Below, one piece after another: positions 22,253 to 42,850 of a stretch of DNA of 64,000 nucleotides. A program made the translations under genes and the position numbers. Origin of the DNA: an uncultured Methylomirabilota bacterium (GTDB lineage: Bacteria; Methylomirabilota; Methylomirabilia; CAVQYV01); assembly GCA_963718295.1 (NCBI GenBank), contig CAVQYV010000008.1, forward strand, positions 79,098 through 143,097, given 5' to 3'. Each line of letters begins with the position of its first letter. The stretch's first letter is position 1. The notes beneath the pieces were generated by a model. That model did not search any database. It was given only the letters and a program-made list of their open reading frames with translations, and was not told the DNA's origin.

Positions 22253-24087
22253 ATGCGACGGAATCAGATCCAAATGCTCGTAGTTGCAGCTCTTGTTTTC
22301 TTCTCACTCTTGGGTGAGGTAGCACCTTCTGAGGCCTCCACCAGCGTTTTCCAGGGGTTGGAGCGCTACCCCGTGAATGGAAAGGAATGGATACCATTGG
22401 TGGATGGCAAAGCATATTTTCGGGATGCCTTCGTAGGCGGTTTGACAGCCATTCTCGACGCTGCCGATGGGGAGGAATGGGGAGGTTCGGTGGTCCGGCC
22501 TGATGGTTCCTATCTCTACTGGTATCCCATTAGATTCCATTCGAATTACCAGGGTAAATCGGACTGCTTTGTATGCTCGAATTGGCGAGAGCCCGTCTGT
22601 GGCTCGAACAGCATCATGATGCGTTGGTATACGAATGTACGTCCCGATGCGGATAGCGGATTGCCATGCTATCCCACTGGCCTCTGGAGGTATAGCTTCA
22701 CGAAGAACGGCGTTGCCTTTGCTACTCCGGAATTCACGCTTTTGCCACAGATTCCTGGGGTGCCGTGCTTCAGCCAAGGAGACCAGCAACACACCTTAGC
22801 GATTCCATCTGTAAGGGGCCGAGGAGACAATGGTCGCATTACATCCGTTCGCTGCGGCGGAAAGTACCAGATTCCCTGGACGATTGCTGCCAAAGGGTGT
22901 CTCCTGGTTAACGCTGTTATGATTCTACAATACCACGGGGTGACTACAGGGAGTCGACGGCGGAACCTGTGACGCCGGAGAACCTGAATGCCTGGCTAAT
23001 TGAAACAGGGTACGGCTATGACGCCGATAGGTGAACTGAGACTGCCAAAAGCTGAGAAAGTACTCGGGCGGGCAAGTGACATATCGCCAAATGGTCGAGT
23101 TGGATACTGATGTTCCATAGCGATGCTTTCCTTCGAGAAGAAATGTGCAAGTATGGACCTACCGTGATCCGGGTCCAGTTCGCCCGCCGGGTCATCCGGG
23201 GCCACTTCGTGGTAGGCGACTGGGCGGGACTACCCCGCAGGAAAGCACCTGGCTGATTAACGATCCAGCCGGAGGAGAAGTGACTACGTTGGCCCAAATA
23301 TGGAAATCGATACTATTGTCTCCGGAGGTTTACTGGCCCGGAATTTGGTTGGACGGACCGTTTAGTGGACTCAGTATCAAGCTATACTCCCCTGCGGAGT
23401 TCTTCTCACTGACCCGCAGGGACGGCGGACAGGGCGGGACCCCATCAGCAACATGGGCTTACAGGGAGATTCCGCGCTCTGCTTACGTGGACGTCTGCAT
23501 TGCAGATGCGGAGAATGGCGAACTCGTCCCTCCGGTAATGGAACTTGAGGTATTGCGAGCCTATAGACGGGACTTACACCCTACAGGTGACGGGGATTGA
23601 AGCGGGAGGTTACAGTCTCTATATTCGGCCTGAAGATCGGACAGGGGAATCGGCCTCCCAGACGTTGCTCGGGGAGATCCCTACCTATCCAGGTGCTATC
23701 CACAGCTATACTATCGAATACTCTGCTACTCCCGGTGCCATATTGAAGCTCTTCGGTGGCTTTGACGGACACGGCCAAAGGCCCAGTAACGTAAACATGT
23801 TCCTGTCCTACGGCAACCCTATGAGCTCTCGGGTTCAGCTTGAGGCGGGTGAGAAGACATTTCCTCTTGTGATCTTATACGGAGCCACCATTCAGCCGCA
23901 AACCTTTCGGGCTACGCTAAATGGAACGGATATAACGGCCCAGTTCCGCCCTATCCCCGGAGGAACCGAACTGATCAACCTGTCGCTGGATCCTGGCTCA
24001 AACCCATTAGTTCTGTCCGTAGACGGTGCCACCGCCTCGGGCAGGGTGGCCACGGACACGGACCGCTTGGTCTTCCTAGTGCCATGA
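22253..24087 (+). pseudogene. secreted protein with C39-like (papain-fold) peptidase domain plus C-terminal beta-rich module; several frameshifts
   Basis: Signal peptide MRRNQIQMLVVAALVFFSLLGEVAPSEA; peptidase motifs VPCFSQ, KGCLLVNAVMILQYHG, and in a shifted frame GHFVVGDWAG then LINDPAGG; coding continues across at least three frame changes (track ORFs 22166..22972, 23145..23600, 23545..24087). Confidence 0.5.
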
Positions 24088-24952
24088 GATCGGGATTCCT
24101 TTCCTGCATCTTCTTGTTAATTTTGATTATCGCGCCACCGATCAGGCAGCTCGAAATCGGAGCGACCCCCCCAGATCCCCAGCAAACACTCATGGAGAGA
24201 AAGCCGTCCAAAGAGCCCTTTCACAGTCTCACCCTCAGGCTCTTGGGTCTTAAGATGGACCGGATCAGTCAAAATTTGGTGAGCGAGCTTCTTCTGACCG
24301 ATTCCCAGGGGCGGCGAACGGGAACAGACCCCATGGCAAGAGCCAGATATAAGGAAATCCCTCAATCCGCCTACATAGAGGAATATATGGTTCGTCCAAT
24401 GAAAGAGCTTGAGATCTCCAAGCCGCTCGACGGATCATATATCGTTGCAGGTGATCGGGATAAACCGCGGAAGTTACGATTTGTCGACCTATCCGACCGA
24501 CGAAGCCGGAGACTCCCCCAATCAGCCCCGCTTTGATAACATCCCTATCGCACCCCGAATGGTACACGCCTACAAGCTGGACTACACTCGTACCCCTGGA
24601 ATTCCTCTCAAGGTCACCGGCGGCTTCGACGGGGGAGGAAAGGGGCCAACAGATATGAACAACTTCTTGACCTATGCAAATCCCATTTCCACTGAAACCG
24701 ACAATCCGGGCTGGAAAGACCCCCTTTCCTTTGATCCTATTTTATGCCCCCACCATCGATCCCGCTAGCTTCACGGCTACGCTGGATGGCGTCGATATCT
24801 CACGCCGGTTCAAGCCGATCCCCGGTGGCTACCAGGTCATTCCCCTCAAGTTCAGTGTTGGCTCGCATACCCTGATGCTTTCGGTGCAAGGGAAGACCTC
24901 CGGCGGCGAGGCGGCCACGGACACGGACAAGCTCACTTTCTCGGTTCATTGA
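24084..24952 (+). pseudogene. secreted paralog carrying only the C-terminal module of the upstream gene; two frameshifts
   Basis: ATGA start/stop overlap with upstream gene; signal peptide MRSGFLSCIFLLILIIAPP; homology to gene 1 module (GGFDGGGKGP..., ATLDGVDISRRFKPIPGG..., TDTDKLTFSVH) spread over frames at 24084, 24409 and 24674. Confidence 0.45.
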
Positions 24953-25341: not shown

Positions 25342-25371
25342 CTCTTCGCGCCCCGGTTCAGGGATATGCAG

Positions 25372-25809
25372 GAATCAGGGGACATAATACCGATTCTTCC
25401 CTTGCCTTTGTAAGTAGATCCTCATAGCATACCCGTATGGCCCGTATCTCGCGCATCGTCGTTCCGGGTTACCCCCACCATGTAACCCAGCGGGGCGTCC
25501 GCTCGATGGAGGTGTTTCACAGGGATGAGGAACGCCACGCTTACCTTCGGTTTCTTGCCGAGGAGGCAGGCCGCTTCGATGTGGACATCCTCTGCTGGTG
25601 CCTGATGAGCAACCATGTCCATGTCATAGCCGTCCCCCATCAGGAGACCTCTCTTGCCAGGGCGTTCGGCGAGGCGCACCGGCGCTATACCTGATGGAAG
25701 AACTTCGCGGAAGGCGTACGCGGGTATCTCTTCCAGGGACGGTTCAGCTCGTCCGTCCTCGGCGAAGATCACCTGCTTTCTGAATCGGTGAATCAGGGGA
25801 CATAATACC
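25372..25809 (+). mobile_element. REP/RAYT-like element, copy A (carries the transposase ORF; 3' part missing)
   Basis: Starts with gaatcaggggacataatac shared by all three copies; contains the Y1 HUH transposase ORF. Confidence 0.7.
25437..25808 (+). pseudogene. IS200/IS605-superfamily Y1 (HUH) transposase of the REP-associated (RAYT-like) type, nonsense codon and 3' truncation
   Basis: MARISRIVVPGYPHHVTQRGVRSMEVF...LMSNHVHVIAVP (HUH motif) ...RRYT-TGA-WKNFAEGVRGYLFQGRF; in-frame TGA at 25692-25694; ORF ends where copy B begins. Confidence 0.7.
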
Positions 25810-26100
25810 GATTCTTCCCTTGCCTTTGTCAGTAGATTCTCATAGCATACCAGTAGGGCCCGTATCTCGCGCATCGTTGTTCCGGGTTGAAAGGAGTTTC
25901 TTCGCAGCGGAGACGACCAGGCAACGGTCCGGCTCTGGCTGGCGACGCGGACGGGTCGGCCGGCAGGCGGTGAGGAGCTTATTGCCCTAGTGGAACGGCT
26001 GACGGGTCGTGACCTGCGCAAAGGGCCGCCGGGAAGGCCCAGAAAGGCGCAGGCATAAAACAGTATTATGTCCCCGGATTCCCCTGTCCCCGGATTCCCC
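25810..26100 (+). mobile_element. REP/RAYT-like element, copy B (internally deleted derivative, MITE-like)
   Basis: Same 5' end; retains only first about 8 codons (start ATG changed to AGG) fused to transposase C-terminal coding (TRTGRPAGGEELIALVERLTGRDLRKGPPGRPRKAQA); ends gtattatgtcccc plus ggattcccctgtccccggattcccc, inverted relative to the 5' end. Confidence 0.7.
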
Positions 26101-27178: not shown

Positions 27179-28613
27179 ATGTTCGTCAGGCTCAAGAGCT
27201 ATTTATCTAAAGGCAACAGATACGAATATCTCCAGATCGTCGAATCCTATCGGGATCACGGTGCCGTCCGCCAGAGAGTCGTGTCTAATATCGGCCGGCT
27301 CGATCTGCTGGCCGCCTCCGAGCAACTCGATCAGATCGTTTCGGGCCTCTCCCGCTACAGCGAGGCCTACCGTGGATTTCAAGCCTTCCTCCGGGGGAGC
27401 TGGAAGGATGTACCGCCCGCACCTGGGGACCCTGCCGATCTTTGGCCGGCTCTGGGAGGATCAGCGGCTGCCGGAGGTGATCCGGCATCTGGCCCAGGGA
27501 CGAGGGTTCCAGTTCGAAGTGGAACGAGCGGTCTTCGCCCTGGCGCTGCAACGGCTCTGTGCCCCGGGAGCGATCTTTCCGGTCGAGGATGGCTGGAGAC
27601 GGTAGAGGCCCCCGGATTGCAGGCATTGCGCCTGCAGCATCTGTACCGGACCTGCACGTTCCTGGCCGGGATCCGGGAAGAGCTGGAGCGGGAGCTCTTC
27701 TTCCGGGACCGGGATCTCTTCTCCCAGGAGCTGGACCTGGTCTTCCTGGACACCACCTCCACCTATGTGTACCGGGATCAGGAGACGCCCTATCGGCGAC
27801 GGGGGTTCTCCCGGGATCGCCGGGCCGATCTGCCCCAGTTCGTCCTGTGCGTGGCGGTGGATGCCAAGGGGTGGCCCGTAGCCTGGGAGATCTATCCGGG
27901 CAACACGGCGGACGGGGTCGCCCTGGAGCGGATCGTGGGAGCCCTGCGGGAGCGCTTTCGGATTCGGCGGGCCATCGTGGTGGCCGACCGGGGGATGATG
28001 TCCCGGGAGACGATCCGGCTGCTGGAGGCACACCCGGCCCCCTTCGACTACATCCTGGGCTGTCGGATGCGAGAACAAAAGGAGGTACGCGAAGAGGTGC
28101 TGGCCCGGGTGGGCCGCTACCAGGTCGTAGCCGGGAACCTGGAGGTGAAAGAGGTGAGCGTAGGAGGCAAGCGCTACCTCGTCTGCCGCAACCCGGAGGA
28201 GGTCCAGAAGGATCAGGCGGCCCGGGAGGCTATCCTGGCCCAGCTGGAGGAGGTCCTCTCTCAGGGTCCAAGGGACTCATGGCCAACAAGGGGTATAGGC
28301 GTTTCCTGAAGATCGGGAAAGGCTCGGTGCGCATCGATCCTTTGGCCGTCGAGCAGGATGCCCGCCTGGACGGCAAGTTCGTGCTGGCCACCAATACCGA
28401 TTGCCCGCAGCGGAGGTGGCCCGAAGCTACAAGAGCCTCTGGCGGGTGGAGCGTACCTTTCGCGAGGAGAAATCTACCTTGGAGGTGCGGCCATCTATCA
28501 CCATCGGGATGACACCTGCATCGGCACATCGTCGCCTCCTTTTGGCCCTGCGCCTGGAGGTGGACCTGCAACGGAGACTGGAGGAGAAGGAAATCGAGGC
28601 CCGGCCCAGCTGA
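27179..28613 (+). pseudogene. IS4-superfamily (IS1634-family-like) DDE transposase, multiply frameshifted
   Basis: N-terminus MFVRLKSYLSKGNRYEYLQIVESYRDHGAVRQRVVSNIGRLD; DDE region LVFLDTTSTYVY...VVADRGMMS; C-terminal segments DGKFVLATN and YKSLWRVERTFREEKSTLEVRP lie in two further frames. Confidence 0.55.
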
Positions 28614-28881
28614 TGCAACAGCTTTCCAGGTGCAGGCGGTGCACATCGGCCTGGGGGACGACACTTCCTCCACGGACATCTGGGTCCGCTTCTCTCGCCT
28701 TCCAGGCGGTGGGCATGCGTCCCCGCCGGATGGTGGAGATGGAGGGAGGAAGATGTAGTGCCAAGAATTGGAGCTAAGCGAATCTGCTAAATAATAAGTA
28801 CAGAAAGGCAGGAAGAGAAAAGCAATATGTATCAAGGCCTTTGGCCCCCTCCATACTGTTTCAGGAAGGTGTGCCATCCTT

Positions 28882-28964
28882 GGAAGAATCAGGGGACATG
28901 GAAGAATCAGGGAAGAATCAGGGGACATGGAAGAATCAGGGGACATGGAAGAATCAGGGGACAT
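28882..28964 (+). repeat. about 4.6 tandem copies of an 18-bp unit (ggaagaatcaggggacat) at the 5' end of element copy C
   Basis: Directly visible; unit equals the element 5' terminal sequence. Confidence 0.8.
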
Positions 28965-29262
28965 AATACCGATTCTTCCCTTGCCTTTATCAGTAGATTC
29001 TCATCGCATACCAGTATGGCCCGTATCCCGCGCATCGTTGTTCCGGGTTGAAAGGAGTTTCTTCGCAGCGGAGACGACCAGGGGACGGTCCGGCTCTGGC
29101 TGGCGACGCGGACGGGGCGGCCGGCAGGCGGTGAGGAGTTTATTGCCCTAGTGGAACGGCTGACGGGTCGTGACCTGCGCAAAGGGCGGCCGGGAAGGCC
29201 CAGAAAGGCGCAGGCATAAAAACAGTATTATGTCCCCGGATTCCCCTGTCCCCGGATTCCCC
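28882..29262 (+). mobile_element. REP/RAYT-like element, copy C (internally deleted derivative, MITE-like)
   Basis: Near-identical to copy B over about 300 bp, including start ATG, the same internal deletion and the same 3' end (gtattatgtccccggattcccctgtccccggattcccc). Confidence 0.7.
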
Positions 29263-29491
29263 ACAGGGGTTTTTGAACCCGAGCCTCTTGACATTCATGG
29301 GGGCGACCCACTCCCGCACCCTTCTTTCCGCCTCTTCCAGATCCTTCACGATCTTGTTGACCCCGCAGACCAAAATCACCTTCCTGGGTCCGAAGGTCAT
29401 CGCCGCCACTCGATTGCCCGTGCCATCAATGTTGAAGAGCTTGCCGTCTTCCGTTACCGCATTGCTGCTGCCAACAAACACATCGGCCAGA
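29263..29491 (-). pseudogene. internal fragment of an LUD-domain gene (duplicate of part of 34018..34674)
   Basis: About 230 bp roughly 90 percent identical to 34146..34371; encodes ADVFVGSSNAVTEDGKLFNIDGTGNRVAAMTFGPRKVILVCGVNKIVKDLEEAERRVREWVAPMNVKRLGFKNPC; bounded by element copy C and the Kelch gene 1 leader. Confidence 0.55.
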
Positions 29492-29667
29492 TGCATGCGT
29501 GATGATACGAGGTGCAACGGGAACTGCGGAGGTCCAACGGGCCTCTCATCTTGCAGGCATTGAAAGCCAATGGCCTATTTCTTGCTGAGGTCGATTTAAC
29601 AGCCTACTGGAAAGATCGTTCAGGTGGCATCCGAAGACCCGAGCGGAGATCAGAAAGGAGGAGCAAG

Positions 29668-31799
29668 GTGAAACGGAAAAGCTCCACCTCGCTGCAATTC
29701 ATTCTCTTGGTTCCCCTGTCTCTCATCATCCTTTTCGCCGCTTCCAGCCAAGGGGCAGAGCAATGGAAGGACACTTTTGTGGGTGTCCCCCGAGCGAGCG
29801 GTCCCGCCATCTGGACCGGCACGGAGATGATCGTCTGGGGAGGCACCTATTACTATAGAAGCGGAGGACGCTTCAACCCCTCCACGGACGCTTGGACACC
29901 TATTTCCAACGCCAGGGCACCGCTGCCCGGGTATGCCCACACCGCCATCTGGACCGGCACGGAGATGATCATCTGGGGAAGTGGTAGCAACAGCGGCGGA
30001 CGGTACAATCCGACTACCGATACCTGGACTCCCGCTTCGACTGCCGGAGCGCCATCACCAAGATCTGGCCACACCGCCATCTGGACCGGCACGGAGATGA
30101 TCGTCTGGGGAGGGTATGACGGCAGTTCCTATCTCAACACCGGCGCCCGCTACAATCCCACCACCAACACCTGGATTCCTCTCCCCACGGTCGGGGCACC
30201 AAGGATGAGGGAAGACCACACCGCGGTCTGGACCGGCAGCCAGATGGTTGTGTGGGGAGGGAGCAGTGCAGGAGGGCGCAAGAACACGGGCGGACGGTAC
30301 AATCCGACTACCGATACCTGGACTCCCACCTCGACTGCCAGTGCGCCATCACCAAGATCTGGCCACACCGCCATCTGGACCGGCACGGAGATGATCGTCT
30401 GGGGAGGGTATGACGGCAGCTCCTATCTCAATACGGGCGCCCTCTACAATCCGACTACCGATACCTGGACTCCCACCTCGACTGCCAGTGCGCCAGCGCC
30501 AAGATATGCCCACACCGCCATCTGGACCGGCACGGAGATGATCGTCTGGGGAGGTGGCAGCAACACCGGCGCCCTCTACAATCCGACTACCGATACCTGG
30601 ACTCCCACCTCGACTGCCAGTGCGCCAGCGCCAAGATATGCCCACACCGCCATCTGGACCGGCACGGAGATGATCGTCTGGGGAGGACACGGCAGTTTCT
30701 ATCCCGACACGGGGCCCGCTACAATCCCACCACCAACACCTGGAGGGGAATGTCCCTTGAGTACTGTCCCGAGCCCAGAGGGGATCACACCGCCATCTGG
30801 ACCGGCACGGAGATGGTCGTCTGGGGGGGGTATAACGGGTATCTCGCGGGATGGGGAGGCCACTATATCCCCCTCACGGATACGTGGAAATGGGGGGAAC
30901 CCCTAACCACAATGTGGTACCCCCCAGGGCACAGACGAGGTCACACCGCCGTCTGGACCGGCACTTGGATGATCCTCTGGGGAGGGTATGGGTACGATAA
31001 TTTTTGCGGGGGCTTTATTACATACCTCAACGACGGCAGCTTCTACTTGCCTTCTATGTATCCGGTTAATACATGGTATCGGATCTATTCCCTGGGGGCG
31101 CCACAGGCAAGATGTTGGCACACCGCCATCTGGACCGGCAGGAAGATGATCGTCTGGGGAGGATACGACGGCCGAACCTATTTCATCACCGGCGGGCGCT
31201 TCAGCCCGGAGACAAATATTTGGCAAGGCACGTCCACCGAAGGGGCACCGAGAGGAAGGTCCCGGCACACCGCCATCTGGACCGGCAAAGAGATGATCGT
31301 CTGGGGAGGACTTGATCGCACGGCCTCGTTCAACACGGGCGGGCGCTACCGCCCCAGCACCGATACCTGGTCTCCCACCTCGACTGCCAGTGCGCCATCA
31401 CCAAGATCTGGCCACACCGCCATTTGGACCGGGAAGGAAATGATCGTCTGGGGAGGGTATGACGGCAGCTCCTATCTCAACACCGGCGCCCGCTACAATC
31501 CGACTACCGATACCTGGTCTCCCATTTCCACCGCCGGTGCGCCATCACCAAGATCCGGCCATACCGCGGTCTGGACCGGCACCCAAATGATCGTGTGGGG
31601 CGGCAAGAATGCCTCTGGTTGCATGAGAACCGGGGGCCGCTACGACCCCGTCACGGACACCTGGACCCCCACCACCCTGAAGCTGGCACCCGTGGGAAGG
31701 GCCCATCACACCGCCATTTGGACTGGCACGGAGATGGTCGTCTGGGGAGGGATGAATGGTGGCTTCTACCTCAACACGGGTGGCCGCTATACCCCTTGA
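29668..31799 (+). CDS. secreted Kelch-repeat (beta-propeller) protein, paralog 1; one frameshift near 30713
   Basis: GTG start after RBS aaaggagga; signal peptide KRKSSTSLQFILLVPLSLIILFAASSQGA; about 13 repeats of the RYNPTTDTWTP...APSPRSGHTAIWTGTEMIVWGG unit; frame change between track ORFs 29512..30906 and 30750..31799. Confidence 0.6.
30436..30686 (+). repeat. perfect intragenic tandem duplication (119 bp identical, 132-bp period) inside Kelch gene 1
   Basis: ggcgccctctacaatccgactaccgatacctggactccc...gatcgtctggggagg occurs at 30436 and again at 30568. Confidence 0.75.
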
Positions 31800-31848
31800 T
31801 TCCAGCGAAATCGGAAGAATCCAGCGGAGGTCGGAAAGGAGGAACAAG

Positions 31849-33978
31849 GTGAAACGGAGGAGCTTCACCTCTCGGCAATTGGTTTTCTTGGCCTCGTTCT
31901 CTCTCATCGTGCTTTTAGCCGCTTCCGGCCAGGCAACGGAGGAATGGAAGGGCACTCCTGTGGGCGCCCCCTGGGTGGACCGTGGTCAAACCGCCATCTG
32001 GACCGGCACAGAGATGATCGTCTGGGGAGGAACCTATCACTATAGAGGGGGAGGGTGCTACAACCTTGCCACCGACACCTGGAGACCCATTTCCAACACC
32101 AAGGCGCCGAGGGCTGAATACGACCACATAGCGGTTTGGACGGGCACGGAGATGATCATCTGGGTGGGAGCCAACAACACCGGCGGCCGTTATGACCCCG
32201 CCATGGACAGGTGGTCTCCCATTTCCACCGCCGGTGCGCCATCACCAAGATCATGGCCATACCGCCGTCTGGACCGGCACGGAGATGATCATCTGGGGAG
32301 GGTATGACGGCAGCTCCTATCTCAACACGGGCGCCCGCTACAATCCGACTACCGATACCTGGTCTTCCATTTCGACCGCGGTGCGCCAACCGCGGGCCAC
32401 ACCGCCATCTGGACCGGCACGGAGATGATCATCTGGGGAGGTGGCAGCAACACCGGCGGCCGCTATGACCCCGCTACCGATACCTGGTCTCCCATTTCCA
32501 CCGCCGGTGCGCCATCACCAAGATCTAGCCATACCGTGGTCTGGACCGGCACGGAGATGATCATCTGGGGAGGGTATGACGGCACTTGGCTCAACTCGGG
32601 AGGCCGCTACGATCCTACCGGCGATACCTGGATCTCCACTTCGGTAACAGGCGCGCCCAAGGCGAGAATTGCCCACACCGCCATCTGGACCGGCAGTCAG
32701 ATGGTTGTGTGGGGAGGGAACGGTGCAAGAGGGCACAAGAAGACCGGTGGACGCTACGATCCGACGAGCGACGCCTGGACAGCTACCTCCACCCTTGGGG
32801 CGCCTGAAGGGAGGGTTTATCATACGGCGCTCTGGACGGGAAGGAGATGATCGTGTGGGGCGGGAGACGGCAGCTCGTATCCGAACGACAGCGGCGGACG
32901 CTACGATCCCGCTGCCAACGCTTGGAGCAAGATCTCCCATGATAGGAGTCCTGAGGAGAGACGCGATCACACCGCCGTCTGGACCGGCACGGAGATGATC
33001 GTGTGGGGTGGGTATAACGGGGATCATCTGGGATGGGGCGGCCACTATATCCCCCTGACGGATACCTGGACCCGGACGGAACCCCCCTCTGGTTTTCTCC
33101 GAGGTGGGGGGAGGAAGGACCACACCGCCGTCTGGACCGGCACGGAGATGATCGTCTGGGGAGGCTATGGGGACGGCAGTTGCGGATGCACTCCATACCT
33201 CAACAGCGGCGCGCGCTACCGGCCCGCGTTTTATCCCGATGATACCCGTGCCTGGCTTGGGATGTCTTACCTGGGGGCACCACAGGCAAGGCGTTGGCAC
33301 ACCGCCGTCTGGACCGGCGGGAAGATGATCGTCTGGGGAGGGTATGACGGCCGAACCCACCTTACCACCGGCGGGCGCTACAACCCGGAGACGGATATCT
33401 GGCAGGGCACCTCCACCGAAGGGGCCCCCAAAGGCAGGTCCCGGCATACTGCAATCTGGACCGGGAAGGAAATGATCGTCTGGGGAGGGCTTGGTCGCAG
33501 CGCCTCGTTCAACACGGGCGGGCGCTACCGCTTCAATACCAATACCTGGACTCCCACCTCGACCGATGGAGCGCCATCTCCAAGATATAGCCATACCGCC
33601 ATCTGGACCGGCAAAGAGATGATCGTCTGGGGAGGGTATGACGGCAGCTCCTATCTCAACACGGGCGGCCGCTACAATCCGACTACCGATACCTGGACTC
33701 CCCTCTCCACGATCGGGGCACCCACGATGAGGAAGGACCACACCGCGGTCTGGACCGGAAGCCAGATGATCGTGTGGGGCGGCAAGAATGCCTCTGGTTA
33801 CATGAGAAGCGGAGGCCGCTACGACCCCGTCACGGACACCTGGACCCCAACCACCGTGAAGCTGGCACCCGTGGGAAGGGTCCATCACACTGCCATTTGG
33901 ACTGGCACGGAGATGATCATTTGGGGAGGAATTAGCGGTGGCTTCTACCTCGAAACAGGTGGCCGCTATACCCCTTGA
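31849..33978 (+). pseudogene. secreted Kelch-repeat protein, paralog 2; at least four frameshifts
   Basis: Same leader and GTG start (ggaaaggaggaacaaggtg), same signal peptide type and repeat unit; coding alternates among track ORFs 31756..32307, 32192..32428, 32425..32850, 32995..33978; one break is a G-run length change (acgggaaggag versus expected acggggaaggag). Confidence 0.5.
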
Positions 33979-34017
33979 TTCCAAGGGGAGAAATAGGGAC
34001 CCCTTGGGGTCGGCCGC

Positions 34018-34674
34018 TCAGAACCCCAAAGGTTCCCCGACCAGCAGGACGGTGTAATCCGTCCGCAGGGGTTTCTTGGCCAATACGGTGTAGATGTTAC
34101 AGATCCTCTGGGGAGAGTTGCAGTCCGCGCATTGGCCCGTCTCCGCACAGGGGTTTTTGAATCCGAGCCGTTTGACATTCATCGGGGAGACCCACTCCCG
34201 AACCCTTCTTTCCGCCTCTTCCAGATCCTTCACGATCTTGTTGACCCCACACACCAAAATCACCTTCCTGGGTCCGAAGGTCATCGCCGCCACTCGATTG
34301 CCCGTGCCATCGATGTTGAAGAGCTTCCCGTCCTCGGTCACCGCATTGCTGCTGGCGACGAACACATCGGCCAGAAGGATCTCGCGGCGGATCCTCAATC
34401 CGTCCTCTGCCGAAAGTCCCGGTGCAAAGGGATGTAGCAGCTGGATGGGATGTTTCTTTGCCTCCTCGAAGAATCCGATCTGACTCAGGGTGATAGAGCC
34501 TCCGATTCCCACCTTCGCCCCTTCGGGAATCCTCTTGAAGACCTCCCCCGCGGCATCCGAGGCCTGGGGAATGAATTCCGCATCGAACCTGTTCTTTCTG
34601 AGCGCCTTAAGGGTCCTTTCCACCTGATGTTCCTGAAACCACTTATGGTATTCCGTCATTGCTGAAACCTCCAT
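34018..34674 (-). CDS. LUD domain (lactate-utilisation LutB/LutC-like, DUF162) protein
   Basis: 218 aa; GIGGSITLSQIG...LLADVFVASSNAVTEDGKLFNIDGTGNRVAAMTFGPRKVILVCGVNKIV typical of LUD/YkgG-like proteins. Confidence 0.65.
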   Translation of the reverse strand: MEVSAMTEYHKWFQEHQVERTLKALRKNRFDAEFIPQASDAAGEVFKRIPEGAKVGIGGSITLSQIGFFEEAKKHPIQLLHPFAPGLSAEDGLRIRREILLADVFVASSNAVTEDGKLFNIDGTGNRVAAMTFGPRKVILVCGVNKIVKDLEEAERRVREWVSPMNVKRLGFKNPCAETGQCADCNSPQRICNIYTVLAKKPLRTDYTVLLVGEPLGF

Positions 34675-38333: not shown

Positions 38334-39074
38334 TCACTCGACCTCCGTGCAAAGGATCTGCGCCAATTGGCGGGCGCCTCTCACCATGGTGAGATGGCCG
38401 ACGCCTCTCAGCTTGTGAATCCTGGCGTGGGGCCAGGCCTGCTGAAGATATGCTACGGACCGGCGAACCGCGGCAAAGGTCTGGATTCCATAAGCGAGAT
38501 CCACTGGAAGATTCAGGTCTCGGAGTGACCCATGTCCCTTGAATTGACCGAATAGGTGGAGGTAGTTGAGGGTTGCCTGATGATTCACATGGACGAAGGC
38601 CTCGGTGAAGTTGCCGTCCGTGGGTTGCCTATTTTGAAGGACCCGATTCACGATTCTTCGCCCCACGGGACCGGCGAAAGAGACGTAATAGGCCCGGCGG
38701 CCGAACTCACCCAGGGTGAACAGTTTGAAATACCAGGGGAGATAGGTGAAGGGATCGACCAAAACCAGCCGCCGAATGCGGCTTTTCCGCTCCCGCGCCA
38801 GTAGCATGGCGAGGAATGCCCCGCTGCAGAAACCGATCAGGGTGGAATCGCCGTGGGTCGCCTCATCGATAACAGCCGCCAATTCTTCGGTGATCAGGGA
38901 GAGATCCCAACGAGCGGGAAGAGGGGATTGGCCGTAGCCGGGCAGATCCACGCTGAGGAGCCTCATCCCTTGGGGAAGCCGGCTCGCCAATGGGGCAAAT
39001 TCACGATGGTCTCCCCCCCATCCGTGAATGGCCAGAATGGTTTTTGAGCCTTCGCCGTACTGCTTAACGTGCAT
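38334..39074 (-). CDS. alpha/beta hydrolase fold protein
   Basis: HGWGGD oxyanion region; nucleophile elbow reads GFCSG (Cys where Ser is usual). Confidence 0.75.
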   Translation of the reverse strand: MHVKQYGEGSKTILAIHGWGGDHREFAPLASRLPQGMRLLSVDLPGYGQSPLPARWDLSLITEELAAVIDEATHGDSTLIGFCSGAFLAMLLARERKSRIRRLVLVDPFTYLPWYFKLFTLGEFGRRAYYVSFAGPVGRRIVNRVLQNRQPTDGNFTEAFVHVNHQATLNYLHLFGQFKGHGSLRDLNLPVDLAYGIQTFAAVRRSVAYLQQAWPHARIHKLRGVGHLTMVRGARQLAQILCTEVE

Positions 39075-40569
39075 GCCAAAAGATCCTTTCCGCAGTCATC
39101 CGCCCGCTCAGCACCACAATGGGCAGGCCGGTGCCAGGGGTGGTGCCTGCACCGGTATAGTAGAGTCCCTGGATATCCCGATCGAAATTCCGATCCCGGA
39201 AGGGACCCAGTTGAAGCAGCGTATGGGCCGCAGCGAAGGCGGATCCATGATAGAGCCCGAACATTCGCCGCCAGTCCTCCGGCGTAAGGATGATCTCCAT
39301 CATGAGGCGCTCCGGGGGGATTTCGACATGATGGCGGCGAAGTCGGCTGAGAACCCTTGCCTTCAGCGCCGGTACGATCGTTGCCCAATCGGCAGCTCCC
39401 AGCTCTTTGGGGATGGGAGCGGGAATGAGCACGCACATTGTATGATGGCCAGCCGGCGCGAGGGTAGGATCTGTGGCGGAGGGAATGCTGACGTAGAAAG
39501 GCAGATCGTCCGGGATTCGTTGGTGCTGGAATAGCTCATCAAAGGTGGTGTGGAAATCATTGGGCAGAAAGATCGTATGGTGTTGCATTCCCTCTGCTGG
39601 ACCTCTCACCCCCCAATAGAACGTGACCACACCGGGCGTCATGGAAGGATTACGTCGGAGCAAGTTGTTGGGCCGCTGCGCATAGTCATGGGGCAAGAGC
39701 TCCCGCCGCGTGGTGGGGACATCGACGTTGGAAACCACCCACGGCCAATCTTCGGTGGTTCCATCGTCGAATTCCAGTCCCTGGATATGGCGTTTGTGGA
39801 CGATCATTTTTCGAACTCGCCGGCCGGTCAAGATGTGGACACCCAGATCAGTGGCCAGCCGGGCGATAGCCTCCACCAGGCTGTAGATCCCGCCGCGGGG
39901 GAGCCAGAGCCCGTAGGCCAGTTCGGCATAGGAAAGGATGGAAAAGAGGCCTGGCAGAGCCTTGGGGGATCCACCCAGATACATGGCGTAGGAGCCGAAG
40001 GCCTCCCGGATGTAGCGACTCTTGAAAAACCGCTTCAATTCCGAGTCAAGAGAACGCCAGACAGAGGACTTGCTCATCTCTGCGGGGGAGAGCGCGAAAA
40101 ACCACGCAAGTGGATTGTCGGTGTTCTGGCGAACGAGCTTGCGGAAGGAGAAATTGTACTTGGTTTCTGCATCGCTCAAAAAAGCGGTCAAGCCGGTTGC
40201 GGCCCCCGGCTCCAGGCGCTCACATTCACCTTTGAGGCGGCGCAGATCACTCGAAAGAGAAAAGGAAGACCCATCGGGCCACAAAAAGGCGATGGAAGGA
40301 TCCACGGGCAGAAGGGTCACATGATCGCTCAGACGCCTGCCGGCGGCGGCGAAGAGCTCCTCAAAGACCCAGGGATAATTCAATAGAGAAGGTCCGGTGT
40401 CGAAGCGGAAACCGTCCTGCTCGATCAAGTTCGCCCTGCCACCCGGGCGTGGGAGGGCCTCGAAGATGGTCACCTCAAAGCCAGCCAGGCGGAGATGAAT
40501 CGCGGCGGAGAGGCCACCCAGGCCCGCGCCGACGATGGCAATTCGTTTTGCTGAGGAGGGACGCGTCAT
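39064..40569 (-). CDS. phytoene desaturase family (CrtI/CrtN-type) FAD oxidoreductase
   Basis: IAIVGAGLGGLSAA dinucleotide motif; about 500 aa; adjacent to phytoene synthase. Confidence 0.75.
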   Translation of the reverse strand: MTRPSSAKRIAIVGAGLGGLSAAIHLRLAGFEVTIFEALPRPGGRANLIEQDGFRFDTGPSLLNYPWVFEELFAAAGRRLSDHVTLLPVDPSIAFLWPDGSSFSLSSDLRRLKGECERLEPGAATGLTAFLSDAETKYNFSFRKLVRQNTDNPLAWFFALSPAEMSKSSVWRSLDSELKRFFKSRYIREAFGSYAMYLGGSPKALPGLFSILSYAELAYGLWLPRGGIYSLVEAIARLATDLGVHILTGRRVRKMIVHKRHIQGLEFDDGTTEDWPWVVSNVDVPTTRRELLPHDYAQRPNNLLRRNPSMTPGVVTFYWGVRGPAEGMQHHTIFLPNDFHTTFDELFQHQRIPDDLPFYVSIPSATDPTLAPAGHHTMCVLIPAPIPKELGAADWATIVPALKARVLSRLRRHHVEIPPERLMMEIILTPEDWRRMFGLYHGSAFAAAHTLLQLGPFRDRNFDRDIQGLYYTGAGTTPGTGLPIVVLSGRMTAERIFWHAR

Positions 40570-40576
40570 GAAGAAA

Positions 40577-41566
40577 TCATCTCCTCAAGTAGGCCCAGGG
40601 TATCTTCCAGAACTTGCTTGGTGGTAGAGGTCTGAGCTTTTCCCACAGAGGGACGCTTTCGCGCTGTTTCGTGCCTCCCTCGCCTTGGAGAAGGCGGTGG
40701 TTCAATAGGCGATAGACATCCATGCAGGCTTTGATGGCGATGCGGCTATCCTCGGCAAAGGCGTCGAGGCCTTGCTCGGCTCGGCCATAAAACGACTCTG
40801 CCTCTTGTGCCATTTTATGGATCACCCGGGTCAGCGCAGCCTGCTGTGCGGGATCATCGGGACTTAGTACCTCAATGCCTTCTGCGCGGAGACAGTCCTG
40901 GGGGAGATAGGTGCGTCCCCGCCGCTGGTCTTCTCTCACATCCCGCAGGAAGTTGGTGAGTTGCAGGGCAATGCCGAGATGGCGTGCACTTTCCAGGGCC
41001 CGCGGGAAATCACCCGGTGTGGATGGACCGTAGACATGGGTCAGGAAATAGCCGACCACGATCGCGCTGCCGTAGACATAGGAATTGATGAGATCATCGA
41101 GGTTGGTGTATATGCGGGGATGAACATCCTGGCGCATGGCATCCAGGAAGGCGCGGTAATGATCGGGCGGAATCCGGGTCAGGCGGAAAACCTCGATCAG
41201 AGCGGCAAGAAAACAGGGCACCTTCCGTGCCAGGGCAGCCATCAGATCGTCTTCTCGCAGGGCAGCCTCGAAACATGACTCCCATTGATCCAGCCGCTGG
41301 AGGCGCTCTGGAGAGCTCAGCCGGAAAGTGTCAACGACTTCGTCCGGGTAGCGCACGTTGGCATAGAGCACCTCCACCATATCCCTCTTGTGGGAGGGCA
41401 AGAAGCGGCTGACCATGAAAAAACTGGTGGAGTAAGCGCGCATGACCGACCGCGATTGCAGCACAATGAGATGCCAGGCCCTCCCTGCATCCCCCGTCCT
41501 CCAGGCCTGCTGCCGGGTTCTCTCTTCCATCTCGCGCCAGTCTGCCTCACTCCAGACCTTCTTCAT
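40577..41566 (-). CDS. crtB: phytoene synthase (squalene/phytoene synthase family)
   Basis: YVYGSAIVVGYF and LGIALQLTNFLRDVRED signatures. Confidence 0.8.
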   Translation of the reverse strand: MKKVWSEADWREMEERTRQQAWRTGDAGRAWHLIVLQSRSVMRAYSTSFFMVSRFLPSHKRDMVEVLYANVRYPDEVVDTFRLSSPERLQRLDQWESCFEAALREDDLMAALARKVPCFLAALIEVFRLTRIPPDHYRAFLDAMRQDVHPRIYTNLDDLINSYVYGSAIVVGYFLTHVYGPSTPGDFPRALESARHLGIALQLTNFLRDVREDQRRGRTYLPQDCLRAEGIEVLSPDDPAQQAALTRVIHKMAQEAESFYGRAEQGLDAFAEDSRIAIKACMDVYRLLNHRLLQGEGGTKQRESVPLWEKLRPLPPSKFWKIPWAYLRR

Positions 41567-41628
41567 GACGCAGCCCTCATATCAAAGCTTTTGCGTCGGA
41601 GGCAAAACTATGAGAATAGATACCGGCC

Positions 41629-42150
41629 ATGAAATCTTCCTTCCTCTTGATCTGCTTCTGTCTCGCCTGTGCCGTCCCCGTTTCGGCAGCCACCCCGGAC
41701 TCCCTCTACGATCAGGCTGCGGTGTTTCAGCTCCGGGATCAGTATGAAAAGGAACACAGCTACTGTTTTCCGCGCTCCAAGGTTAGCGTGCTGGTTTTTG
41801 CCGACCGAGAAGGGGCGGAACAAATAGAGGGCTGGGTCCGGCCGCTTTACGAGCGCTATCAGGATACGATAGATATCCACGGGGTGGCGAACTTGAAGGG
41901 CGTTCCGACCTTTGCCCAGGGACTGGTACGAAAGATTTTCCGCAAGAGCCTCCAGTATCCGGTAATGCTGGACTGGTCTGGTGATGTAGCCAAATCCTAT
42001 GAGTCGCAATCGGGCATGGCCAACCTGATCTTGTTGAGCAAAGAGGGCGCCGTCGCCTTCAGGATCACCGGGGCTTCGAACCAGGAAAAACTTCAGCAAT
42101 GCTTTAGCGCGATCGACCGGCTTTTGCCGGAAGGTGCCTCGCCGCGCTGA
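41629..42150 (+). CDS. hypothetical secreted protein
   Basis: Signal peptide MKSSFLLICFCLACAVPVSAA; 173 aa, protein-like; 3' end overlaps convergent gene by about 47 bp. Confidence 0.45.
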   Translation: MKSSFLLICFCLACAVPVSAATPDSLYDQAAVFQLRDQYEKEHSYCFPRSKVSVLVFADREGAEQIEGWVRPLYERYQDTIDIHGVANLKGVPTFAQGLVRKIFRKSLQYPVMLDWSGDVAKSYESQSGMANLILLSKEGAVAFRITGASNQEKLQQCFSAIDRLLPEGASPR

Positions 42151-42850
42151 GCGAAAAGCCGGCATGCAGCACAGAGAGTATCACTCCCATCATCGCCGGC
42201 AGAACAAGGCTGCTTCCCAGGGCAAGGATGGTGAAAAACAGGATCACGCTGGCGCCGATCCATCTTGCCCAGACATTGGCCACCATCGGGCGCCGATAAA
42301 GCAGAAACAAAGCCAAGCTGACCAGAAACCATCCGGTGAAATTGCTGAGGGGCACTCCATAATAGCTGCCTCCCTCCGACCAGCGCCAATAGCCGAGCTG
42401 TCCCACGGCGAGGGGCTCCATGACCAGATCGATCGCGGTCATCCAGATCGCACCCAGCAGAGGGCGTGCCCACCCCGGCAGAGTCCACCCTATCATCATC
42501 TGCTGAACATACGCAAGCAGTACGATCCAGGCACACCCCATTGCCACGGGGACTCCGGCGACCAACGGGAAAAGGACGTCCGTGTAATGATACCGACCGA
42601 AGGGAATTCCGGTGTGCACCCCCAGCAGTTCTACGGACCAGCCCAGGATTCCCCATCCCAGGAGGGCCATCCGGTCTGCCGCTTGGGCCGATACAAGGAC
42701 GATGATCCCGCTGAGCGCCAAAAAGGCCGGAGCGGCCCATCGGGAGGCAGCGGGCGGTCCCTTGAGCACAAGATAGCTCGCCAGACCTCCGACCCACAAG
42801 ATGGCAAAGGCTAAGGCCAGCGCAGTGAGGGTGAGTTCACGGGCCCTCAT
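42104..42850 (-). CDS. carotenoid biosynthesis membrane protein (DUF422 / CruF-like, putative carotenoid 1,2-hydratase)
   Basis: Polytopic membrane protein (GIPFGRYHYTD..YYGVPLSNFTGWF) overlapping the downstream desaturase start; family assignment from context and memory. Confidence 0.5.
   Translation of the reverse strand: MRARELTLTALALAFAILWVGGLASYLVLKGPPAASRWAAPAFLALSGIIVLVSAQAADRMALLGWGILGWSVELLGVHTGIPFGRYHYTDVLFPLVAGVPVAMGCAWIVLLAYVQQMMIGWTLPGWARPLLGAIWMTAIDLVMEPLAVGQLGYWRWSEGGSYYGVPLSNFTGWFLVSLALFLLYRRPMVANVWARWIGASVILFFTILALGSSLVLPAMMGVILSVLHAGFSLSAARHLPAKAGRSR

What the first reader, a model, noticed from the sequence alone, without database searches (positions are those of the whole stretch)
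29668..33978. Tandem secreted Kelch-repeat paralogs with matching leaders, GTG starts and an internal perfect duplication
Two roughly 710-codon genes each encode a signal peptide followed by about 13 Kelch-like units (HTAIWTGTEMIVWGG). They share a near-identical leader ending in ggaaaggagga(g/a)caaGGTG. Gene 1 contains a perfect 119-bp tandem duplication (30436 and 30568), indicating ongoing repeat expansion. Gene 1 has one frameshift near 30713 and gene 2 at least four.
Basis: partly seen in the sequence, partly recalled or inferred. Interest (0 to 1): 0.6.

Follow-up and report, generated by a model that had tools for sequence, protein, structure and literature searches.

The report
Two tandem secreted Kelch propeller genes
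Two neighbouring genes encode exported proteins built from 14 Kelch blades each, ordinary members of a very large bacterial family, and the frame breaks in them are more likely long-read consensus errors than real gene decay.

Summary
Two head-to-tail + strand genes (GTG 29668 to stop 31799; GTG 31849 to stop 33978) share a GGAGG leader and each starts with a signal-peptide-like segment. The 119-bp perfect repeat at 30436/30568 is real. Gene 1 has one frame break and gene 2 has four. Repaired, each gene is 710 codons with 14 Kelch units, not about 13.

Pfam Kelch models score far above their cut-offs. The C-terminal half of gene 1 models as a closed 7-blade propeller (pLDDT 92.6). The family is huge: 42,637 clusters at 50% identity. 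In 82 of the 120 best homologues I infer 14 blades.

The paralogs are old (69% amino-acid identity, dS 0.54, dN/dS 0.34). The 119-bp identity is better explained by gene conversion between existing blades than by repeat expansion.

Across six broken genes in this window I count at least 18 small indels and no in-frame stop codon. The contig appears to be 696 kb. I therefore lean (about 0.6) towards consensus errors over real pseudogenes, but only reads can settle this.

The ligand and function are unknown. The genes are not NanM mutarotases. This is a new member of a known kind, of low interest.

The parts
29629..29667 (+). Leader of gene 1, containing AGGAGG 5 nt before the GTG start. It is homologous to the leader of gene 2.
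   Evidence: blastn and MAFFT give 83% identity over 71 nt. Predicted RNA folding is no better than shuffled sequence, z = -0.44.
29668..31799 (+). Kelch gene 1. Repaired, it is 710 codons: a signal-peptide-like N-terminus (29668-29754), one free beta-strand, then 14 Kelch blades. The last blade has only three strands.
   Evidence: The model of 30708-31796 is a 7-blade propeller with pLDDT 92.6 and pTM 0.90.
30436..30554 (+). First copy of the perfect 119-bp repeat, spanning the core of blade 5 into blade 6.
   Evidence: 119/119 identity at offset 132. TRF finds period 132 with 98% matches.
30568..30686 (+). Second copy of the perfect 119-bp repeat, spanning the core of blade 6 into blade 7. 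It is preceded by a short loop that gene 2 blade 4 also has.
   Evidence: The 26-mer 30546-30571 is exact at 32433.
30712..30714 (+). Frame break in gene 1: one base is missing (expected ACG GGC GCC CGC, found ACGGGGCCCGC). As written, the ORF ends at 30906.
31810..31848 (+). Leader of gene 2, within the 49-nt gap after the stop codon of gene 1.
31849..33978 (+). Kelch gene 2. Repaired, it is 710 codons with the same architecture as gene 1. Breaks: +1 at 32253, -1 near 32379, -1 near 32840, -2 near 32865.
   Evidence: It is 69% amino-acid identical to gene 1, with dS 0.54 and dN/dS 0.34.
33998..34011 (.). GACCCC-loop-GGGGTC hairpin between the convergent Kelch gene 2 and the LUD gene. It is followed by a T-rich stretch on the - strand.
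29258..29491 (-). 234-bp fragment of a LUD-domain gene, 92.7% identical to 34142-34375 with no gaps, lying directly upstream of gene 1.
28951..29262 (.). 312-bp element that resembles a MITE (short transposon remnant) with inverted ends. It is a copy of 25790-26100 (97% identical) and abuts the LUD fragment.
27179..28613 (+). IS4/IS1634-type DDE transposase gene with about 8 frame changes and no in-frame stop in the homologous pieces.
34018..34674 (-). Intact LUD-domain gene, convergent with gene 2.
   Evidence: LUD_dom profile positions 1-189 of 189.

Best explanation
The locus holds two old tandem paralogs, each encoding an exported protein made only of a signal peptide and 14 near-consensus Kelch blades.

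- Architecture: the blades most likely fold as two 7-blade beta-propellers. A free N-terminal strand supplies the missing fourth strand of an otherwise three-stranded blade (velcro closure).
- Family: the genes belong to a very large bacterial family of 14-blade Kelch proteins whose ligand is unknown. The most likely role is an extracytoplasmic binding scaffold that uses the variable top-face loops. This role is inferred from the fold, not shown.
- Repeat evolution: blades within and between the two genes are kept similar by short-tract gene conversion. The 119-bp perfect repeat is the most recent such event, not the addition of a blade.
- Frame breaks: as written, gene 1 is broken once and gene 2 four times by 1-2-nt indels. 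I judge these more likely (about 0.6) to be indel errors in the consensus of a long-read metagenome assembly, concentrated in a repeat-rich, probably strain-variable segment (21.7-34 kb). The alternative (about 0.35-0.4) is real, very recent inactivation.
For: Kelch identity:
- Pfam scores are far above the cut-offs for both genes.
- phmmer and Foldseek best matches are Kelch domains: Keap1, KLHL12/17/20, LZTR1 and the consensus-like SAKe designs.

Fold:
- Residues encoded by 30708-31796 model as 7 four-stranded blades, with the leading free strand confidently placed (pLDDT 92.6, pTM 0.90).
- A 14-blade homologue models with pLDDT 87 and pTM 0.63, as expected for two rigid domains.

Family:
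- 7,995 of 8,000 scored candidates have E <= 1e-10.
- 42,637 cluster representatives at 50% identity match at E <= 1e-3, and 6,362 at E <= 1e-30.
- I infer 14 blades in 82 of the 120 best homologues.
- An intact tandem pair exists in another genome, locus L104.

Old paralogs under constraint: 69% amino-acid identity, dS 0.54, dN 0.18, dN/dS 0.34. Blades 8-14 are collinear at 72-93% nucleotide identity.

Gene conversion:
- Exact matches of 35-77 nt link non-orthologous blades within and between the genes.
- Blade a6 combines a loop identical to that of gene 2 blade b4 with a core identical to a5. The b4 core is only 81% like the 119-bp tract.

Errors rather than decay:
- At least 18 small indels and no in-frame stop across six genes: Kelch 1, Kelch 2, the IS transposase, an MltD-like gene and two unknown paralogs at 23.1-24.95 kb.
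- Nearby neutral DNA differs mainly by substitutions. The LUD fragment has 17 substitutions and 0 gaps in 234 nt. The two copies of the 312-bp element differ at about 10 positions, with at most one or two gaps.
- A gene call with 100% identity to the window's own IS lies on a 696-kb contig from NCBI/ENA.
- The closest relatives include MAGs with Microflora Danica names. MAGs of that project were assembled from Nanopore reads only, with Flye and one round of Medaka polishing (PMC12313526).
Against: - No reads or sister genome could be examined. The best Kelch relative is 55% identical, and none of 21 related LUD loci carries a Kelch gene.
- The breaks are not in long homopolymers. One is a non-homopolymer insertion and one is a 2-nt deletion.
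- They lie in a segment with undoubtedly real rearrangements: a LUD gene fragment, copies of a MITE-like element and an IS. Real decay of a dispensable island is therefore plausible.
- About 35 other ORFs in the window have full-length Pfam domain matches, so any error process would have to be local.
- Gene 2 scores slightly lower than gene 1 on all seven Kelch-type Pfam families that both genes match, which would fit mild relaxation of selection.
- The signal peptide, the two-propeller arrangement of the full-length window proteins and the binding role are inferred, not tested.
Confidence: 0.8

Rival explanations
1. The frameshifts are real. Both genes are recent pseudogenes in a decaying, mobile-element-ridden island. 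Gene 2 is dead, and gene 1 makes at most a truncated secreted fragment of six and a half blades.
For: - The neighbourhood holds a broken IS, a LUD gene fragment, MITE-like copies, an 18-bp array and another broken gene pair.
- The rest of the window is largely intact.
- The break contexts are not classic long homopolymers.
- Frameshift-disrupted repetitive Kelch propellers have been described in other genomes (PMC9218822).
Against: - At least 18 indels and no nonsense codon across six genes. If frameshifts outnumber nonsense mutations 2-5 to 1 under neutral decay (my own assumption), the chance of seeing no stop is about 0.001-0.04.
- There are no larger deletions.
- All blades keep the consensus residues.
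- dN/dS is 0.34.
- A single-copy MltD-like gene outside the island is also frameshifted.
- The contig is long, so the assembly is probably from long reads.
Confidence: 0.37
2. The 119-bp perfect repeat is a fresh tandem duplication that added a blade, so the array is currently expanding.
For: Perfect identity at a spacing of exactly one 44-codon unit. New propellers are known to arise by blade amplification (PMC9218822).
Against: - A clean 132-bp duplication should give 132 identical bases. Only 119 are identical, followed by 2 mismatches in the next 7 nt and an unrelated remainder.
- The loop that precedes copy 2 is shared exactly with gene 2.
- Without this blade, gene 1 would have 13 blades, whereas its paralog and most homologues have 14.
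Confidence: 0.15
3. The genes encode N-acetylneuraminate mutarotases (NanM/YjhT), as many homologues are labelled by JGI.
For: The source name 'N-acetylneuraminic acid mutarotase' appears on most JGI homologues.
Against: - TIGR03547 scores 58 bits against a cut-off of 256. PRK14131 scores 38.5 bits against 416. Only one blade matches in each case.
- The architecture is 14 blades, whereas NanM is, to my knowledge, a single six-blade propeller.
- No sialic-acid genes were found among the roughly 45 window ORFs scanned against Pfam.
Confidence: 0.03
4. Gene 2 is a silent donor cassette and gene 1 an expression site. Segmental gene conversion would then diversify a secreted binding protein.
For: A patchwork of exact tracts links the two genes. 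Gene 2 carries more breaks than gene 1.
Against: - The shared tracts cover the conserved blade cores, not the variable loops.
- Gene 2 has its own ribosome-binding site and signal peptide.
- dN/dS is well below 1.
- No population data show variation.
Confidence: 0.03

Closest known systems
Bacterial 14-blade Kelch-repeat proteins (COG3055-type, often auto-named 'N-acetylneuraminic acid mutarotase'), for example P0090, P0038 and P0001
   Same: Same blade consensus (HTAVWTGxEMIVWGG ... NTGGRYNPxTDxWT ... APxxR). Same count of 14 blades, same free N-terminal strand and same three-stranded last blade. Identity is 45-57%.
   Different: Homologues usually carry about 340 extra N-terminal residues, including a conserved unnamed domain (ERVxYQRAIEEVYWRHRIWP...), and a C-terminal extension. 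Many also have a cysteine on the N-terminal strand and a GGRYC end; 54 of 119 have both. The window proteins have none of these; they are the bare signal peptide plus propellers.
Eukaryotic Kelch-domain propellers (Keap1, KLHL12/17/20, LZTR1) and the SAKe consensus designs derived from Keap1
   Same: Same fold and motif. Foldseek E is 1e-16 to 1e-18 with probability 1.00, and phmmer reaches E = 1.6e-54 against SAKe6AC-LB. The SAKe designs are ancestral or consensus versions of Keap1 blades (bioRxiv 10.64898/2026.03.16.710736).
   Different: The best-matching chains are about 280-320 residues, the size of a single propeller, and the TM-score normalised to the 363-residue query is only about 0.6-0.68. 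Keap1 and the SAKe designs have six blades. From general knowledge, these are cytosolic adaptors with BTB/BACK domains. The window proteins have seven blades per ring, two rings, and are exported.
Highly repetitive and frameshift-disrupted beta-propellers (Pereira and Lupas 2022, PMC9218822; WRAP/Npun_R6612, whose 14 blades form two 7-blade rings)
   Same: Repetitive blades, 14 blades expected to form two 7-blade rings, and blade-bearing ORFs split by frameshifts. That paper describes a 7-blade Kelch-like propeller in a Verrucomicrobia genome broken in the same way.
   Different: Median blade identity here is 55% and 52.5%, below that study's 60% threshold. The 14-blade array is ancient and family-wide rather than freshly amplified.
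NanM/YjhT sialic-acid mutarotase
   Same: Kelch blades and periplasmic export.
   Different: Model scores are far below the cut-offs, the architecture is 14 blades rather than six, and there is no nan gene context.

Membership tests
Kelch-repeat beta-propeller superfamily (Pfam clan with PF01344, PF13415, PF24681) | Kelch repeat HMMs match above the curated gathering scores | tested here: met
   Kelch_1 scores 132.2 and 124.9 bits (cut-off 20.1). PF24681 scores 350.5 and 337 bits (cut-off 50). Kelch_3 scores 113 and 90.5 bits (cut-off 22).
Kelch-repeat beta-propeller superfamily (Pfam clan with PF01344, PF13415, PF24681) | Four-stranded antiparallel blades arranged in a closed ring | tested here: met
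   AlphaFold2 model of 30708-31796: 7 blades of 4 strands, pLDDT 92.6, pTM 0.90. Foldseek top hits are all Kelch propellers. The full-length repaired protein could not be modelled.
Kelch-repeat beta-propeller superfamily (Pfam clan with PF01344, PF13415, PF24681) | Conserved GG doublet, aromatic Y and W spacing in each 44-56-residue unit | tested here: met
   All 28 units carry W-[TS]-G-x-x-M-x-x-W followed by GG in 26 of the 28 units (a2 has GS, b2 has VG). Nearly all units also carry G-x-Y...W. Unit lengths are 44-59 residues.
NanM/YjhT N-acetylneuraminate mutarotase (TIGR03547, PRK14131) | Whole-protein score above the NCBIfam cut-off | tested here: not met
   58.2 bits against 256.35, and 38.5 bits against 416. 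Only one blade (residues 604-649) matches.
NanM/YjhT N-acetylneuraminate mutarotase (TIGR03547, PRK14131) | Single propeller of about 350-390 residues | tested here: not met
   710 residues and 14 blades. The NCBIfam profiles are 346 and 384 positions long.
NanM/YjhT N-acetylneuraminate mutarotase (TIGR03547, PRK14131) | Mutarotase activity on sialic acid | not testable with these tools
   Needs an enzyme assay.
Highly repetitive (recently amplified) beta-propellers as defined by Pereira and Lupas 2022 | Median pairwise blade identity above 60% | tested here: not met
   55.1% for gene 1 and 52.5% for gene 2. Only some neighbouring blades exceed the threshold: a5/a6 90%, a11/a12 78%, a4/a5 67%. 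Threshold taken.
Sec-exported proteins (signal peptidase I type) | Basic N-region, hydrophobic core of 15-17 residues, small residues at -3 and -1, no lipobox cysteine | tested here: inconclusive
   By inspection only: MKRKSSTS-LQFILLVPLSLIILFAA-SSQG|AEQ and MKRRSFTSRQ-LVFLASFSLIVLLAA-SGQA|TEE. No signal-peptide predictor was available. Gene 2 has an RR-x-F that faintly recalls a Tat motif, but Pfam reported no Tat-signal match at E <= 0.01.
Pseudogenes | Frame-disrupting lesions present in the organism's DNA, not only in the assembly | not testable with these tools
   No reads and no sister genome. Indirect evidence (at least 18 indels, 0 stops) leans against.

The most novel reading that the evidence does not exclude
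The two tandem paralogs form a small diversification system. Gene 2, the more damaged copy, would serve as a silent donor. Short-tract gene conversion would shuffle blade segments into gene 1 and so vary the binding face of a secreted double propeller, in the manner of pilE/pilS or vlsE cassette systems.
Probability: 0.03. Interest if true: 0.6.

Novelty: new member of a known kind. Interest (0 to 1): 0.15.

Why it matters
It matters little for biology. The locus adds a minimal member (signal peptide plus 14 blades, nothing else) to a very large, still uncharacterised family of bacterial double Kelch propellers. It also gives a clear example of blade homogenisation by gene conversion.

The practical value is as a caution. 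In this window, frame breaks cluster in repeat-rich and mobile DNA, and they consist only of small indels. Calling these genes pseudogenes, or reading repeat 'expansion' from one assembly, would be unsafe without reads.

Tried and rejected
1. Sister genomes to check the frame breaks:
   - The exact-protein look-up of the LUD gene found nothing.
   - The genome scan gave a best LUD relative of 79% identity, and none of 21 loci carried Kelch genes.
   - An exact 26-mer from the gene ends was absent from metagenome contigs.
   - The protein-based metagenome scan gave at most 53% identity.
   - Gene calls from the window's own genome exist in the protein collection (P0121), but their contig could not be retrieved.
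I modelled the intact C-terminal half and a 14-blade homologue instead.
3. A regulatory RNA structure in the shared leader: fold energies are no better than shuffles (z = -0.44 and +0.59). Rfam and tRNA scans of the window found nothing.
4. Methylation-motif errors: breaks are not enriched near GATC (3 of 18 observed, 2.5 expected, P = 0.46).
5. The 489-aa antisense ORF 32515-33984 and other - strand ORFs have no family match. They are shadows of the repeat.
6. Function from gene neighbourhood: the neighbours of three homologues share nothing.
7. NanM membership was rejected on model scores.
8. Sigma-70 promoter and terminator scans gave nothing above the shuffled background, apart from the hairpin between gene 2 and the LUD gene.
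Full report
**1. What is in the sequence**

The region holds two head-to-tail + strand genes. In each, AGGAGG lies 5 nt before a GTG start (29668 and 31849), within ggaaaggagga(g/a)caaGGTG. The homologous leader begins about 39 nt upstream of each start (29629 and 31810). Both genes end with the same ...GGCCGCTATACCCCTTGATTCCA (stops at 31797-31799 and 33976-33978). The duplicated unit is therefore about 2.18 kb, and only about 5 nt separate the two copies.

The perfect repeat is exactly as reported. 30436-30554 equals 30568-30686, 119 of 119 at offset 132. The next longest exact repeat in the locus is 77 nt.

Three-frame translation places the frame breaks precisely.
- Gene 1 lacks one base at 30712-30714.
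- Gene 2 has an extra A at 32253.
- Gene 2 lacks one base near 32379 and one near 32840.
- Gene 2 lacks two bases near 32865.

With these five repairs both genes read through for 710 codons with no internal stop. Each has 14 repeat units, not about 13.

**2. What the genes encode**

Both repaired proteins match the Kelch models of Pfam far above the gathering scores:

| Pfam model | Gene 1 (bits) | Gene 2 (bits) | Cut-off (bits) |
|---|---|---|---|
| PF24681 | 350 | 337 | 50 |
| PF24981 | 232 | 219 | 50 |
| Kelch_1 | 132 | 125 | 20.1 |

The stretch 30708-31796 is an exact window translation that carries blades 8-14 and the strand before them. It was modelled with 25 aligned sequences (24 homologues and the matching part of gene 2). 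The result is seven four-stranded blades with pLDDT 92.6 and pTM 0.90. The leading free strand (residues 11-13) is confidently placed, and I infer that it fills the fourth position of the three-stranded last blade.

Foldseek and phmmer against the PDB return only Kelch domains: Keap1, KLHL12/17/20, LZTR1 and the Keap1-derived consensus designs SAKe.

Each protein begins with a basic stretch, 15-17 hydrophobic residues and a small-residue cleavage motif (SSQG|AEQ and SGQA|TEE), with no lipobox cysteine. I read this as a Sec signal peptide, by inspection only.

After the signal peptide comes one strand (EQWKDTF) that looks like the last strand of a blade. The protein ends after the third strand of blade 14. 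This is the usual velcro layout.

Two 7-blade rings are the expected architecture. A 14-blade homologue (P0090) models with pLDDT 87 but pTM 0.63, as two rigid domains with a loose hinge would. I could not model the repaired window proteins themselves.

**3. How common the family is**

It is very common.
- Of 8,000 candidates scored in the 5.8-billion-protein collection, 7,995 have E <= 1e-10, and the best is 55% identical.
- An exhaustive HMMER search of 1.84 billion cluster representatives finds 42,637 at E <= 1e-3, 19,898 at E <= 1e-10 and 6,362 at E <= 1e-30.
- In 82 of the 120 best homologues I infer 14 blades. The blade consensus is the same as here.
- Most homologues add about 340 N-terminal residues and a C-terminal tail that the window proteins lack.
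- Many homologues have a cysteine on the N-terminal strand and a GGRYC end; 54 of 119 have both. That pairing would staple the N-terminal strand to blade 14. The window proteins have neither cysteine.

JGI names many homologues 'N-acetylneuraminic acid mutarotase', but the NanM/YjhT models score 58 bits against a cut-off of 256 and 38.5 bits against 416. That name does not apply here.

Gene neighbourhoods of three homologues share nothing. One of them (locus L104) is itself an intact tandem pair.

None of 21 related LUD loci from Syntrophales-like and other genomes has a Kelch gene beside it.

**4. History of the repeats**

The two genes are old paralogs. They share 69% amino-acid identity, with dS 0.54, dN 0.18 and dN/dS 0.34. 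Blades 1 and 8-14 are collinear, at 72-93% nucleotide identity. Blades 2-7 are shuffled. For example, a3 is closest to b12, a12 to b3, and a2 to a6 and b4.

Exact tracts of 35-77 nt connect non-orthologous blades within and between the genes. At a synonymous divergence of about 0.5, this indicates repeated short-tract gene conversion.

The 119-bp identity fits the same process, for four reasons.
- A clean 132-bp tandem duplication would give 132 identical bases. Here the identity stops at 119, with 2 mismatches in the next 7 nt on the left and an unrelated loop on the right.
- The short loop that precedes copy 2 (GGGSNTG) is an exact 26-mer in gene 2 blade b4.
- The core of b4 is nevertheless only 81% like the 119-bp tract.
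- Removing the blade would leave gene 1 with 13 blades, against 14 in its paralog and in most of the family.

I therefore read the tract as conversion between the pre-existing blades 5 and 6, not as expansion. Artificial homogenisation of neighbouring repeats during assembly polishing cannot be excluded.

Median blade identity is 55% and 52.5%. That is below the 60% that Pereira and Lupas used to call a propeller highly repetitive.

**5. Are the frame breaks real?**

This is the main open point.

Two observations favour real decay.
- The genes sit in a segment with real rearrangements. These are a 234-bp LUD gene fragment (92.7% identical to the intact gene), a second copy of a 312-bp MITE-like element, an 18-bp tandem array made from that element's end, and an IS4/IS1634-type transposase gene.
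- About 35 other ORFs in the window have full-length domain matches.

The pattern of damage, however, is unusual.
- The IS has about 8 frame changes, yet its pieces are about 96% identical to a second copy (P0122). That copy is continuous across the first three breaks and has a different break of its own.
- A second tandem pair of unknown genes at 23.1-24.95 kb has at least two frame changes in each copy.
- A single-copy MltD-like gene at 6833-8279 is split within its SLT domain.

Together with the Kelch genes, that makes at least 18 indels of 1-2 nt, no in-frame stop codon and no larger deletion. Neutral DNA nearby differs mainly by substitutions: 17 substitutions and 0 gaps in the LUD fragment.

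If frameshifts outnumber nonsense mutations 2-5 to 1 under neutral decay (my own assumption), the chance of seeing no stop among 18 events is about 0.001-0.04.

A gene call identical to the window's IS fragment lies on a 696-kb contig from NCBI/ENA. The nearest relatives include MAGs with Microflora Danica names. MAGs of that project were assembled from Nanopore reads only, with Flye and one Medaka round (PMC12313526). That the window comes from such a data set is circumstantial.

I put about 0.6 on consensus indel errors concentrated in a repeat-rich, probably strain-variable and lower-coverage segment. I put about 0.35-0.4 on real, very recent inactivation.

Against the error reading, the breaks are not in long homopolymers. 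They are also not associated with GATC.

**6. Mechanism**

Shown:
- Kelch repeat content.
- A 7-blade propeller for the C-terminal half of gene 1.
- 14 blades per gene.
- Tandem paralogy with purifying selection.

Inferred:
- Sec export.
- Two 7-blade rings closed by the N-terminal strand.
- A binding role that uses the loops after WGG and before HTA, which are where the blades differ.
- Co-transcription of the two genes, given the 49-nt gap and no promoter-like site.

Unknown: the ligand.

**7. Comparison with what is known, and novelty**

Repetitive Kelch propellers in bacteria have been described before. So have 14-blade arrays that fold as two 7-blade rings, and propeller genes split by frameshifts (PMC9218822).

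This locus is a new, minimal member of a known and very large family. Nothing in it calls for a new kind of system.

The least ordinary reading still open is a donor and expression-site conversion system, at about 3%.

**8. Verdict**

Kelch identity, tandem paralogy and secretion stand; ongoing expansion does not; and the frameshifts may be artefacts. Interest is 0.15.

Noticed in passing
window 6833-8279 (- strand): ORFs 7728-8279 and 6833-7747 are one MltD-like lytic transglycosylase gene (SLT plus two LysM domains) split by a frameshift near 7755-7765. SLT profile positions 14-51 end one ORF and positions 58-114 begin the next. The gene is single-copy and not repetitive.
   Followed up: partly
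window 23145-24952 (+ strand): A second tandem pair of paralogous genes of unknown function: about 45-50% amino-acid identity, no Pfam match for the ORFs tested, and the second copy begins with a signal-peptide-like segment. Each copy has at least two frame changes (near 23448 and 23556; near 24441 and 24697) and no stop in the homologous pieces.
   Followed up: partly
window 27179-28613 (+ strand): IS4/IS1634-type DDE transposase gene with about 8 frame changes. A second copy from the same or a sister genome (P0122, 96% identical, on a 290-kb contig) is continuous where this one is broken and has a different break of its own.
   Followed up: yes
window 25358-26100 and 28936-29262: A 312-bp element with inverted ends (GGGGACATAATAC ... 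GTATTATGTCCCC) is present twice (97% identical), flanking an OmpA-family gene and the IS. A longer version at 25358-25790 carries an 85-residue IS200-like Y1 transposase fragment (Y1_Tnp E = 1.4e-4, 22.4 bits against a cut-off of 23).
   Followed up: partly
window 28881-28964: An 18-bp tandem array (GGAAGAATCAGGGGACAT, about 5 copies) built from the end sequence of the 312-bp element.
   Followed up: no
window 29258-29491: A 234-bp internal fragment of a LUD-domain gene, 92.7% identical without gaps to the intact gene at 34142-34375. The Kelch pair is therefore bracketed by direct repeats of LUD sequence.
   Followed up: partly
window 32515-33984 (- strand): A 489-residue open frame antisense to Kelch gene 2, made of SPDDHLRAGPDGGV-like repeats. 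It has no family match and is a shadow of the repeat, not a gene.
   Followed up: yes
window 16149-18464 (+ strand): A 771-residue ORF that fuses an MFS transporter domain (residues 28-257) to a complete Ldh_2 malate/L-lactate dehydrogenase domain (residues 429-757). It lies downstream of two phenylacetate-CoA-ligase-like genes.
   Followed up: no
window 39064-45432 (- strand): A cluster with squalene/phytoene synthase, two amine-oxidase (phytoene-desaturase-like) genes and a Caroten_synth gene. It looks like a carotenoid or squalene-derived lipid pathway in a Syntrophales-like genome.
   Followed up: no
homologues P0001-P0120; locus L104 6001-12650: Many 14-blade homologues share an unnamed N-terminal domain (ERVxYQRAIEEVYWRHRIWP...LGNDPFVIAECLARP). 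Many also have a cysteine pair at the N-terminal strand and the GGRYC end, which suggests a disulfide staple between the two termini. L104 carries an intact tandem pair of such genes (1100 and 1088 residues).
   Followed up: partly
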